Virus record (IMG/VR): IMGVR_UViG_2529293138_000011
Coordinates: 1-40,429 of that record
Length of the DNA: 40,429 bases
Origin: a virus
Taxonomy: Duplodnaviria; Heunggongvirae; Uroviricota; Caudoviricetes
Strand: one strand, 5' to 3'
Positions 4,761 to 5,778 of the stretch are shown here, piece by piece. The position numbers and the translations under genes were made by a program. Position 1 is the stretch's first letter, and each line of letters starts with the position of its first letter. Below the pieces are notes generated by a model that saw nothing but the letters and a program-made list of their open reading frames with translations, was not told the origin of the DNA and did not search any database.

Positions 4761-4859
4761 CGGTGAGTTAATTTTTGCATTTACCTGGGCCATATTGACT
4801 ACTTATAAAATGAGATCAATATTTAATCGCCCAATAACGGGTGTATGTTGAGGTATATC

Positions 4860-5039
4860 ATGGCGAAAAAACCAGGTGAAAACACAGGAAAAAACGGCGG
4901 AATATACCAAGAAGTTGGCCCACGCGGCGGTAAGAAAGACAATTTTGCCACCGTCAAGGACAACGAAAGGCTTCCACCAACAACAAAGCCAGGTCATGGC
5001 TGGATATTAGATAAGCGAACTCCAGACAGCAAAAAGTAA
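4860..5039 (+). CDS. Small basic Gly/Lys-rich protein of unknown function (moron)
   Basis: MAKKPGENTGKNGGIYQEVGPRGGKKDNFATVKDNERLPPTTKPGHGWILDKRTPDSKK. RBS GAGG 6 nt upstream of the ATG at 4860. A TTGACT -35-like hexamer at 4795..4800. Followed by a terminator. Confidence 0.55.
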   Translation: MAKKPGENTGKNGGIYQEVGPRGGKKDNFATVKDNERLPPTTKPGHGWILDKRTPDSKK

Positions 5040-5045
5040 TAATCA

Positions 5046-5068
5046 AGCCGGGTCACTCCGGCTTTTTG
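5046..5068 (+). terminator. Rho-independent terminator
   Basis: AGCCGGgtcactCCGGCT followed by TTTTT, between convergent genes. Confidence 0.65.
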
Positions 5069-5418
5069 ATATGTCGCTCGCAGAACTCAACAAGCCTGCT
5101 CATTAAGTAGCAGTAAGTCTCGTTGGCTCTTCCTGGTTCAACATCAACACCTACCCTTGAGCAGATATCGAATGCCATGTGAGCGCACTCATGGGCAATA
5201 GTAGATAGTTTGCCATTGAACACGCCTATCACATGCAAAACACCATTCTCGCTGCTCATTGTATGAGACGCTCCGTTGGCGTCCGAGTCATGCACGTCAA
5301 CGCCAAGTTTTTGATGCAGGCGTTGCCATTCTGGAAAGTCTCTACAAAACACAATTGTACCGCTCTCAAAGAGCGGAACGAGCATCTTTGGTACGTTTCC
5401 AATGTTAACTTTTTTCAT
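5053..5418 (-). CDS. Hypothetical protein with HExxH zinc-metallopeptidase-like motif
   Basis: 121-aa ORF. The motif IAHECAHMAFD (HExxH) is seen in the translation; family not identifiable by eye. Globular composition. Confidence 0.55.
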   Translation of the reverse strand: MKKVNIGNVPKMLVPLFESGTIVFCRDFPEWQRLHQKLGVDVHDSDANGASHTMSSENGVLHVIGVFNGKLSTIAHECAHMAFDICSRVGVDVEPGRANETYCYLMSRLVEFCERHIKKPE

Positions 5419-5448
5419 GGTATCCTGCTCAAAACTAAGGAGGTTGGT

Positions 5449-5778
5449 GTGTTAGAAATAGTAGTACTCGCTCTTGGGATATCCTGTTGCGTACTATATG
5501 CAGGGTTAGCTGCCCTCAAGAAACAGGTTAAGGAATTAGATCGCTCACATGAAATTGATACAAAAATTGCGCGATTAACAGAAGAGAATAAACACTTAAA
5601 AAATTCCATAAGGGCACTAACTGATGACAACTACAAACTGTCCCATGCATTGGCTAAGTGGGAAATAGTAAGTTATGAAAGAATGACCGACATGATTTTT
5701 TCGTCTTATATGGCTACAAAATCTCCTGAAACATCAGGAAAAGCAATAATTGCAGCCATTGAAAAGAGAATTAAATAG
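5449..5778 (+). CDS. Membrane-anchored coiled-coil protein (N-terminal TM helix), unknown function
   Basis: Strong RBS AAGGAGG 5 nt upstream of a GTG at 5449. Hydrophobic N-terminus LEIVVLALGISCCVLYAGLAAL followed by heptad-like KKQVKELDRSHEIDTKIARLTEENKHLKNSIRAL. The longer track ORF from 5233 would overlap the HExxH gene on the other strand. Confidence 0.5.
   Translation: MLEIVVLALGISCCVLYAGLAALKKQVKELDRSHEIDTKIARLTEENKHLKNSIRALTDDNYKLSHALAKWEIVSYERMTDMIFSSYMATKSPETSGKAIIAAIEKRIK

What the first reader, a model, noticed from the sequence alone, without database searches (positions are those of the whole stretch)
4795..5778. Uncharacterised three-gene moron cassette in the sieA-equivalent slot, the best candidate for a novel accessory system
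Where P22 carries sieA (between gene 16 and mnt), this prophage has a small Gly/Lys-rich basic protein (4860..5039, own promoter-like sequence and terminator), a 121-aa protein with an HExxH metallopeptidase-like motif (5053..5418, opposite strand) and a membrane-anchored coiled-coil protein (5449..5778, strong RBS). The last two have start codons only about 30 bp apart on opposite strands. The slot is a known hotspot for superinfection-exclusion genes, and I could not match any of the three proteins to a known family.
Basis: inference. Interest (0 to 1): 0.6.

Follow-up and report, generated by a model that had tools for sequence, protein, structure and literature searches.

The report
Swapped gene in P22 sieA slot
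The three small genes are real, but they are not one system: two are ordinary, long-known P22/HK620 genes of unknown function, and only the third, a small membrane-anchored coiled-coil protein, sits where P22 keeps its superinfection-exclusion gene sieA, making it an untested candidate for a new phage-exclusion protein.

Summary
All three ORFs exist at the stated coordinates with the stated features. The "three-gene cassette in the sieA slot" reading does not hold.

- **ORF A (4860-5039)** is P22 gene 59a. It is YjzC-like and belongs to phrog_3202.
- **ORF B (5053-5418, minus strand)** is HK620 hkcC (99% aa identity, phrog_1365). P22 carries both genes next to sieA.
- **ORF C (5449-5778)** is the only gene that replaces sieA. 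The swap runs exactly from the shared GTG start to just past the stop, behind the same promoter and ribosome-binding linker.

ORF C belongs to phrog_8100 and is also present in phages SE1 and ST160. It has one N-terminal membrane helix, a leucine zipper and a highly conserved C-terminal tail. It shows no similarity to SieA.

In 120 viral contigs carrying the linker, at least 12 unrelated small genes alternate in this slot, and 11 of them encode membrane or secreted proteins. Nearly all converge on ejection gene 16. hkcC accompanies ORF C in only 4 of 16 such loci.

The three genes lie in three separate transcription units. ORF C is most plausibly a prophage-expressed inner-membrane exclusion protein, but this rests on position alone. 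hkcC looks like a small SprT-like zincin used in lytic growth. Interest is moderate to low.

The parts
4509..4760 (+). mnt (Mnt repressor). It heads the transcript that P22 annotation extends through 59a to the terminator called t mnt.
   Evidence: ORF. P22 annotation and 98% DNA identity.
4795..4823 (+). Weak sigma-70-like promoter match (TTGACT-17-AATATT) upstream of 59a.
   Evidence: 9/12 match. The mnt-59a intergenic region is about 98% identical in P22, PKF8 and HK620, even where mnt is absent or only a remnant.
4860..5039 (+). ORF A = P22 gene 59a. A 59-aa basic, Gly/Lys-rich YjzC-like protein.
   Evidence: P22 annotation orf59a. phrog_3202 at E = 1e-30. Pfam YjzC 18.2 bits, below the cut-off of 25. 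Graded homology to PF14168-annotated proteins.
5045..5064 (.). Hairpin terminator shared by the convergent genes 59a and hkcC. P22 annotates it as t mnt; HK620 annotates it as a bidirectional terminator, tORF59A.
   Evidence: -12.6 kcal/mol, z = -3.4. Annotations.
5053..5418 (-). ORF B = hkcC. A 121-aa protein with invariant HECxH and NET motifs and a candidate SprT-like mini-zincin fold. It lies on the late-operon strand.
   Evidence: 99.2% aa identity to HK620 hkcC and to P22. phrog_1365 at E = 2e-39. Invariant columns. AF2 model with pLDDT 83.5. BFVD matches.
5388..5448 (+). sieA-type promoter and translation-initiation linker. It includes an extended -10-like TGgTATCCT at 5418-5426 and a Shine-Dalgarno AAGGAGG at 5438-5444. 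One base differs from P22 over this stretch.
   Evidence: P22 PsieA annotation maps here. Alignments. Leavitt et al. inserted sieA in single copy with only 85 bp of upstream sequence containing this putative promoter, and it excluded P22 (PMC10883804).
5449..5778 (+). ORF C. A 109-aa protein with a membrane helix at residues 4-22, a leucine zipper (L43/L50/L57/L64/W71) and a conserved C-terminal tail. It replaces the sieA coding sequence exactly.
   Evidence: phrog_8100 at E = 1e-69.
5779..5829 (-). Conserved spacer (GCCnTCCTTGGC) plus the displaced original end of gene 16, which encodes ...LLTNEATRQ*.
   Evidence: Alignment. ORF 5798-5911. Sequence.
5830..5994 (.). Ends-only remnant of IS21-family ISEc12. 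It has TG...CA termini, repeated GAGATCnnnnAATAACAT motifs and a 6-bp direct repeat GGAGAG. It is inserted in the last codons of gene 16.
   Evidence: Matches elsewhere lie next to istA or between istB and istA.
5963..7810 (-). Gene 16 (ejection protein). It converges on ORF C. Its last residues are now read from the IS remnant (RITVKEIGE*).

Best explanation
The region is the P22-type 'ant moron' between ejection gene 16 and the tailspike gene. It holds three independent modules rather than one system.

1. **Gene 59a** is a small basic YjzC-like protein downstream of mnt. It ends at the shared hairpin terminator. Its function is unknown.
2. **hkcC** is a 121-aa HExxH protein on the late-operon strand. 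It is most likely a small SprT-like zinc protease used during lytic growth. It is probably expressed by read-through of late transcription.
3. **ORF C** alone occupies the sieA position. A conserved linker (extended -10-like element, AAGGAGG, GTG) sits in front of a swappable single-gene slot that converges on gene 16. At least 12 unrelated small genes alternate there, and almost all encode membrane or secreted proteins.

ORF C is a dimer-type leucine-zipper protein anchored by one N-terminal membrane helix. By the charge rule, its zipper and its highly conserved tail face the cytoplasm.

I infer that ORF C is made in the lysogen from the sieA promoter. I infer that it acts, like SieA, at the inner membrane to stop incoming P22-like phages from delivering DNA through the gp16/gp20 conduit.

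Shown here: the anatomy, the gene identities, the exact swap, the independent distribution and purifying selection. Inferred only: expression, topology and the exclusion function.
For: **Gene identities**
- P22 matches window 4700-5452 at 98.3% and stops 3 nt into the ORF C start codon.
- P22 carries orf59a and an intact hkcC ORF.
- Villafane et al. list hkcC and 59a as P22 ant-moron genes (PMC2629481).

**Exact swap**
- The 5' junction is at the GTG. The 3' junction is just after the stop.
- The linker is conserved in front of sieA, hkcB and ORF C, including in loci that lack hkcC.

**Independence of the three genes**
- ORF C homologues at 50-52% identity sit beside gene 16 in Klebsiella and one other prophage, without hkcC, 59a or mnt.
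- In the IMG/VR census, hkcC lies upstream in 4 of 16 ORF C loci.
- Of 5426 E. coli genomes, 296 match part of the region, mostly the 59a-hkcC part. Only 2 include ORF C.

**The slot**
- 12 families were found behind the linker. Eleven have a membrane helix or a signal peptide. A gp16 homologue converges within 400 nt in almost all loci.

**ORF C is a real gene**
- dN/dS is 0.16-0.19 against distant homologues.
- 35 columns are invariant, concentrated in the tail.
- The AF2 model is one helix over residues 2-90 plus a helix over 97-108, pLDDT 85.
- There are no positive charges before the membrane helix and 4 after it.

**Parallel with SieA**
- SieA's most conserved motif is also predicted to lie on the cytoplasmic side. 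SieA homologues are confined to P22-like prophages at this position (PMC10883804).
- The ORF C family is equally confined and tiny: 8 representatives with E <= 0.001, of which only about 5 are clear relatives, among 1.84 billion.

**hkcC**
- Paralogues lie between the lysis and terminase genes in ST64T and mEp044, and one is in the lytic Schitoviridae (N4-like) phage phCDa.
- BFVD structural neighbours include proteins named SprT-like, at E = 1e-4 and TM 0.72.
Against: - There is no experimental or homology evidence for exclusion by ORF C. hhalign against SieA gives probability 0.3%. PADLOC shows only a weak coiled-coil hit.
- The predicted cytoplasmic orientation is less obviously suited to blocking a periplasm-spanning conduit. 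It rests only on the positive-inside rule.
- One of the 12 slot families is cytosolic, so the slot is not restricted to envelope proteins.
- The correlation between slot allele and gp16 type could be plain linkage.
- Late expression of hkcC is inferred from orientation only.
Confidence: 0.45

Rival explanations
1. The three genes form one novel accessory or defence system that occupies the sieA slot and works together.
For: The genes are adjacent. hkcC and ORF C diverge from a 30-bp region. All three are uncharacterised. The trio recurs in SE1, ST160 and E. coli PKF8.
Against: - 59a and hkcC coexist with sieA in P22 and with hkcB in HK620.
- ORF C occurs alone beside gene 16 in other prophages.
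- hkcC is upstream in only 4 of 16 ORF C loci.
- About 290 E. coli genomes have the 59a-hkcC part without ORF C.
- 59a homologues occur in unrelated mobile contexts. hkcC paralogues occur in late operons and in a lytic phage.
Confidence: 0.04
2. ORF C is a prophage-expressed membrane protein with a role other than blocking DNA entry. Examples are an abortive-infection or membrane-depolarising toxin, a modulator of cell division, or a factor that protects the induced cell late in its own lytic cycle.
For: - The predicted N-out/C-in topology with a cytoplasmic zipper resembles division-type coiled-coil anchors.
- There are weak compositional Pfam hits to DivIC and ZapB, at E = 0.004-0.02 and below the cut-offs.
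- One slot family is cytosolic.
- sieA itself is reported to rise on induction (PMC10883804).
Against: - The family is confined to P22-like prophages and always sits next to the ejection gene. That points to a function tied to P22-like phage biology.
- The sieA coding sequence is precisely replaced under its own signals.
- The Pfam hits are far below threshold and typical of any coiled coil.
Confidence: 0.3
3. ORF C is a distant, unrecognisable relative of HK620 HkcB. The two, perhaps with the 106-aa family, form one ancient family of single-pass coiled-coil slot proteins rather than independent inventions.
For: Both are 109 aa long. They share the same slot, strand, GTG start, linker and N-terminal membrane helix with the same charge pattern, followed by a coiled coil.
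Against: hhalign gives probability 1%. The conserved ORF C tail has no counterpart in HkcB.
Confidence: 0.15
4. hkcC is not an enzyme. It is a metal-binding or structural small protein, for example an inhibitor of a host defence or an immunity-region regulator that acts on Mnt, Arc or C2 as ImmA-type proteases act on their repressors.
For: - Four invariant cysteines accompany the two histidines.
- No solved protease fold matches.
- It sits next to mnt and 59a across genera, including Morganella.
- There are weak BFVD hits to proteins named IrrE.
Against: - The pair persists where mnt, arc and ant are lost (HK620, PKF8).
- Paralogues sit far from any immunity genes.
- HExxH plus a downstream invariant Glu on the next helix is the classic gluzincin layout.
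Confidence: 0.15

Closest known systems
P22 SieA (types A-C), the inner-membrane superinfection-exclusion protein of P22-like prophages (Leavitt et al. 2024, PMC10883804)
   Same: ORF C has the same genomic position, strand, promoter and RBS linker and GTG start. Both converge on gene 16. Both families are confined to P22-like prophages. Both are membrane proteins whose most conserved segment is predicted to face the cytoplasm.
   Different: There is no sequence similarity (hhalign probability 0.3%). ORF C has 109 aa with one membrane helix plus a leucine zipper, against 164 or more aa with several membrane helices in SieA. ORF C lacks the FxRYPxEAxxFNK motif. No exclusion phenotype has been tested for it.
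HK620 HkcB (unknown function), also present in epsilon34-type and E. coli prophages
   Same: It has the same slot, the same 109-aa length, the same linker and GTG start, and the same architecture of an N-terminal membrane helix followed by a coiled coil.
   Different: No detectable homology (hhalign probability 1%). It lacks the conserved ORF C tail. In this sample it is linked to HK620-type gp16 C-termini, whereas ORF C is linked to P22-type C-termini.
P22 gene 59a and HK620/P22 hkcC (genes of unknown function in the 'ant moron', Villafane et al. 2008)
   Same: ORF A and ORF B are these genes, at 97-99% aa identity.
   Different: Nothing of substance differs. This window adds only the YjzC link for 59a and the SprT-like structural hint for hkcC.
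SprT-like / minimal gluzincin metallopeptidases
   Same: hkcC has an invariant HExxH on a helix that follows a small beta sheet, with an invariant Glu at the start of the next helix. Its predicted structure resembles phage proteins named SprT-like (E = 1e-4, TM 0.72).
   Different: hkcC falls below the Pfam threshold. It has no match to solved zincins and no third histidine. It has four invariant cysteines. Activity is untested.
Single-pass phage exclusion proteins such as HK97 gp15 and lactococcal Sie2009 (recalled from memory, not tested here)
   Same: They are small prophage-encoded proteins with one membrane helix that are reported to block DNA entry.
   Different: They are unrelated in sequence. 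Their bulk is reported to face outward, whereas ORF C is predicted to face the cytoplasm.

Membership tests
SieA superinfection-exclusion family (types A, B, C) | Detectable sequence homology to SieA, including the FxRYPxEAxxFNK motif | tested here: not met
   hhalign of the ORF C alignment against P22 SieA gives probability 0.3%. The motif is absent from ORF C.
SieA superinfection-exclusion family (types A, B, C) | Several predicted membrane helices in a protein of 164-215 aa | tested here: not met
   ORF C has 109 aa and one hydrophobic segment at residues 4-22. The rest is a single long helix.
SieA superinfection-exclusion family (types A, B, C) | Location between genes 16 and 9 of a P22-like prophage, next to gene 16 | tested here: met
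SieA superinfection-exclusion family (types A, B, C) | Blocks DNA injection by P22-like phages | not testable with these tools
   This needs plating and K+ efflux assays as in PMC10883804.
YjzC-like (Pfam PF14168), for ORF A | Score at or above the Pfam gathering threshold | tested here: not met
   18.2 bits against a cut-off of 25, E = 0.003.
YjzC-like (Pfam PF14168), for ORF A | Homology to proteins that carry the domain, with the shared core motif | tested here: met
   Twelve hits pre-annotated PF14168, eleven of them at E = 1e-6 to 6e-4. UniRef names closer hits 'YjzC family protein'. The shared core is KPG...YQEVGPRGG...LPPTTKPG.
Zincin / SprT-like metallopeptidase, for ORF B | Conserved HExxH on a helix | tested here: met
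   H76, E77 and H80 are invariant in 19 homologues. The motif lies in predicted helix 71-88.
Zincin / SprT-like metallopeptidase, for ORF B | Third metal ligand downstream | tested here: inconclusive
   N99-E100-T101 are invariant at the start of helix 100-116.
Zincin / SprT-like metallopeptidase, for ORF B | Significant profile or fold match to a known zincin | tested here: inconclusive
Two-component spanin, i-spanin (Rz-like), for ORF C | Sits in the lysis cassette with an o-spanin lipoprotein partner and has N-in/C-out topology | tested here: not met
   Only weak PHROG hits at E = 0.015-0.2. ORF C is far from the lysis genes and on the opposite strand to the late operon. The charge pattern predicts N-out/C-in.
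Known anti-phage defence systems (PADLOC-DB v2) | Profile match to a defence protein | tested here: not met
   ORF A and ORF B have no hits. ORF C has only a coiled-coil-type hit to LmuB at E = 0.0014, 15.6 bits.
IS21 family (ISEc12), for the 165-bp element | TG...CA termini with multiple terminal repeats, and sequence identity to the ISEc12 ends | tested here: met
   Termini are TGCGTAT...ATACGCA. Repeats are shown. The left end matches at 94% next to istA, and the right end matches separately. The istAB genes are absent, so this is a remnant and not an active IS.

The most novel reading that the evidence does not exclude
ORF C, HkcB and the 106-aa family would form a new class of superinfection-exclusion proteins. 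They would be single-pass N-out/C-in coiled-coil anchors that block the P22-type ejection conduit from the cytoplasmic face of the inner membrane. The position next to gene 16 would then be a true cassette-exchange hotspot. There, at least 12 unrelated envelope proteins are swapped behind one conserved promoter and RBS linker, in an arms race with the hypervariable ejection proteins.
Probability: 0.3. Interest if true: 0.6.

Novelty: new variant of a known kind. Interest (0 to 1): 0.35.

Why it matters
[quoted passage not shown] This work shows that the sieA position is a swappable single-gene slot holding about a dozen unrelated, mostly envelope-targeted proteins. That gives a concrete, short list of candidates for what the other phages use instead. 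ORF C, HkcB and a 129-aa secreted protein were the commonest alleles in this sample.

Testing these candidates in the established single-copy galK assay is simple. It would show whether different proteins converge on the same gp16/gp20 conduit.

For this window itself the result is deflationary. Two of the three genes are ordinary P22/HK620 genes, and there is no evidence of a multi-gene system.

Tried and rejected
- **Three-gene system.** Rejected on distribution and transcription-unit grounds.
- **ORF C as a diverged SieA or HkcB.** hhalign probabilities were 0.3% and 1%.
- **ORF C as an i-spanin or DivIC-like protein.** Only sub-threshold coiled-coil hits were found, and both the genomic context and the predicted topology are wrong.
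- **Distant relatives of ORF C.** A profile search of 1.84 billion representatives found 8 hits, and the weakest three match only the coiled-coil part.
- **Structure search for ORF C.** Not attempted, because the model is essentially one long helix.
- **Literature.** Searches for orf59a, hkcC and YjzC gave nothing functional.
- **Rfam.** Only sar RNA was found in the region.
- **GATC-rich repeats at 5830-5994.** I first read these as a new MITE or a Dam-regulated switch. That was rejected: they are the two ends of ISEc12, and the thousands of E. coli matches are mostly full IS copies.
- **Slot allele versus gp16 type.** The correlation was noted but not taken as functional evidence, because adjacent DNA is linked.
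Full report
**What is in the sequence**

The window is a P22-like prophage. On the minus strand lie genes 20 (7807-9219) and 16 (5963-7810). Further along are arc, ant (3286-4254) and a tailspike gene that starts at 3185. mnt (4509-4760) is on the plus strand. Rfam finds sar RNA at about 4200-4256.

The three ORFs of the finding are present as described.
- ORF A, 4860-5039 (+), encodes 59 aa with pI 9.9.
- ORF B, 5053-5418 (-), encodes 121 aa with HECAH at residues 76-80.
- ORF C, 5449-5778 (+), encodes 109 aa. It starts at a GTG, with AAGGAGG ending 4 nt upstream.

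A hairpin terminator at 5045-5064 separates the convergent ORFs A and B. The promoter-like site in front of ORF A is a weak consensus match (9/12). The scan found 5 such sites in the region against 3.2 expected by chance.

**Identity of ORF A and ORF B**

P22 DNA matches window 4700-5452 at 98.3%. P22 annotates ORF A as orf59a. P22 also contains an intact copy of ORF B that many records leave unannotated.

ORF B is 99.2% identical in protein sequence to HK620 hkcC. Villafane et al. (PMC2629481) describe this region as the 'ant moron'. [quoted passage not shown]

So two of the three 'cassette' genes are ordinary P22/HK620 genes that coexist with sieA.

The mnt, 59a, hkcC (minus strand), slot gene, gene 16 order also holds in Morganella P22-like prophages. 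There 59a is 78% identical and hkcC 61% identical to the window's copies.

**ORF C is an exact replacement of sieA**

- The P22 match ends 3 nt into the shared GTG start.
- Similarity resumes just after the stop, at a conserved GCCnTCCTTGGC that precedes the end of gene 16.
- The 60 bp upstream differ from P22 at one base. They include the stretch P22 annotates as PsieA.
- Leavitt et al. inserted sieA in single copy with only 85 bp of upstream sequence containing this putative promoter, and it excluded P22 (PMC10883804).
- An extended -10-like TGnTAnnnT followed by AAACTAAGGRGGTTGG(Y)GTG is conserved in front of sieA, hkcB and ORF C. This holds even in loci that lack hkcC.

ORF C is also present in Salmonella phages SE1 and ST160, where it is unannotated, and in about ten other phage records. 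Only 2 of 5426 complete E. coli genomes have it. In all, 296 genomes match part of the region, mostly the 59a-hkcC part, and most of those matches stop at the ORF C start codon.

**What ORF C looks like**

The family is very small. I found 14 clusters at 90% identity. A profile search of 1.84 billion representatives gave 8 hits at E <= 0.001, of which the weakest three match only the coiled-coil part.

The alignment shows three parts:
- a variable N-terminal hydrophobic helix;
- a heptad leucine zipper, with L43, L50, L57, L64 and W71 at d positions and I/N at a positions;
- a nearly invariant tail, KWEIxSYExMTDMIFSSYMATKSPETSGxxIIAAIExR.

AlphaFold2 gives one helix over residues 2-90 and a short helix over 97-108, with pLDDT 85.

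No positive charge precedes the membrane helix and four follow it, in all homologues. This predicts N-out/C-in topology, with the zipper and tail in the cytoplasm. That is an inference from the positive-inside rule.

dN/dS is 0.16-0.19 against the Klebsiella and L006 homologues, so ORF C is a real gene under selection. Against SE1 the ratio is 0.74, and nearly all changes lie outside the tail.

ORF C shows no similarity to SieA or to PADLOC, Pfam or NCBIfam families above noise.

**The three genes are not one system**

- Homologues of ORF C at 50-52% identity lie beside gene 16 in a Klebsiella prophage and in another P22-like contig. In both they converge on gene 16, and neither locus has hkcC, 59a or mnt.
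- In HK620 and in E. coli CU568-3 the slot holds HkcB. In E. coli MS20659 it holds a 164-aa protein of the same length as SieA, which I did not compare further.
- 59a homologues also occur in unrelated mobile contexts.
- hkcC paralogues at 38% identity lie between the lysis and terminase genes in ST64T/L and in lambdoid mEp phages. One is in the lytic Schitoviridae (N4-like) Pseudomonas phage phCDa.

The three genes also belong to three different transcription units.
- 59a follows mnt and ends at the terminator P22 calls t mnt.
- hkcC is on the late-operon strand.
- ORF C is behind PsieA.

**Census of the slot**

I scanned IMG/VR for the 20-nt linker.

Translating from the GTG gave 12 families. 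The counts below are from the clustering.

| Family | Loci |
|---|---|
| 129-aa secreted protein | 21 |
| HkcB type | 20 |
| ORF C | 19 |
| 62-aa protein with two membrane helices | 14 |
| SieA | 11 |
| 75-aa protein with two membrane helices | 9 |
| 106-aa N-terminally anchored protein | 6 |
| 140-aa cytosolic protein | 6 |
| 99-aa secreted protein | 4 |
| 149-aa membrane protein | 4 |
| 116-aa protein with several membrane helices | 3 |
| 68-aa secreted protein | 2 |

The membrane and secretion calls are from my reading of the translated sequences. Eleven of the 12 families have a membrane helix or a signal peptide. A Morganella locus holds a lipoprotein in the same place.

A gp16 homologue converges within 400 nt in nearly every locus. 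hkcC lies upstream in only 4 of 16 ORF C loci, 7 of 11 SieA loci and 2 of 19 HkcB loci.

Slot allele and gp16 C-terminal type are correlated. ORF C, SieA, the 129-aa family and the 62-aa family go with P22-type ends, and HkcB goes with HK620-type ends. This may simply be linkage.

**hkcC**

Nineteen homologues share invariant H76, E77, H80, N99-E100-T101 and four cysteines.

The AF2 model has pLDDT 83.5, but only two of the five models were confident. Its order of elements is beta-beta-alpha-beta-beta-alpha(HExxH)-alpha(E).

Solved structures give nothing significant. Against predicted viral structures there are 22 matches at E <= 0.001. Most are uncharacterised small phage proteins. A few are named SprT-like (E = 1e-4, TM 0.72), Metalloprotease or IrrE.

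I read hkcC as a candidate small SprT-like zincin that acts in lytic growth. That reading is weakly supported.

**59a**

59a scores 18.2 bits on Pfam YjzC, below the cut-off of 25. It is connected by graded homology to proteins that carry that domain, with the shared core KPG...YQEVGPRGG...LPPTTKPG. The function of the family is unknown.

**Mechanism and confidence**

The anatomy and the independence of the three genes are well supported. The evidence that ORF C is a functional stand-in for SieA is its position, its shared expression signals, its membrane anchoring, its confinement to P22-like prophages and the envelope bias of the slot. No functional evidence exists.

I put about 0.35 on the exclusion function and about 0.3 on some other membrane role.

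**Novelty and verdict**

The region, two of the genes and the variability of the slot are already known. ORF C is an uncharacterised family in published genomes. If it excludes phages, it would be a structurally new variant of a known kind of moron. Interest is 0.35.

Noticed in passing
window 5830-5994, with flanks 5798-5829 and 5995-6004: A 165-bp ends-only remnant of IS21-family ISEc12 is inserted in the last codons of ejection gene 16. It consists of the left end plus the right end, with TG...CA termini, repeated GAGATCnnnnAATAACAT motifs and a 6-bp direct repeat GGAGAG. gp16 now ends ...[13 protein letters not shown] instead of ...RPLLTNEATRQ*. The old ending is still readable at 5798-5829.
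   Followed up: yes
window 1240-3185, minus strand: The tailspike gene appears frameshifted. A 379-aa ORF with the head-binding domain (2046-3185) is followed by a 248-aa ORF in another frame. Two E. coli genomes carry the same DNA at 98.6-99% identity, one base longer, as a single gene. The prophage may be tailspike-defective, or the base may be a sequencing error.
   Followed up: partly
IMG/VR loci L022-L141; window 5418-5451: A 20-nt linker, AAACTAAGGRGGTTGGYGTG, preceded by an extended -10-like TGnTAnnnT, is conserved in front of at least 12 unrelated slot genes next to gene 16. It looks like a recombination and expression junction for single-gene swaps.
   Followed up: partly
IMG/VR loci, e.g. 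L095 (129 aa), L093 (62 aa), L096 (75 aa), L094 (106 aa), L101 (140 aa): Several other uncharacterised small envelope proteins occupy the sieA position. A 129-aa secreted protein was the commonest allele in the sample. The 106-aa family has the same N-terminal anchor and charge pattern as ORF C and HkcB.
   Followed up: no
loci L022-L141: Slot allele correlates with the C-terminal type of the adjacent gp16. ORF C, SieA, the 129-aa family and the 62-aa family go with P22-type ends. HkcB goes with HK620-type ends. Linkage and functional coupling were not distinguished.
   Followed up: partly
phage records CP051272 (SW-70), CP051278 (ST-87), CP051288 (ST-29): In these phage records the ORF C match is broken into several pieces or truncated. 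This could reflect pseudogenes or assembly errors.
   Followed up: no
window 4753-4766, minus strand: A second hairpin with a T-run lies at the 3' end of mnt and faces the late-operon direction. HK620 annotates its equivalent as a terminator (tMNT). It would stop non-antiterminated transcripts running from hkcC into mnt antisense.
   Followed up: no
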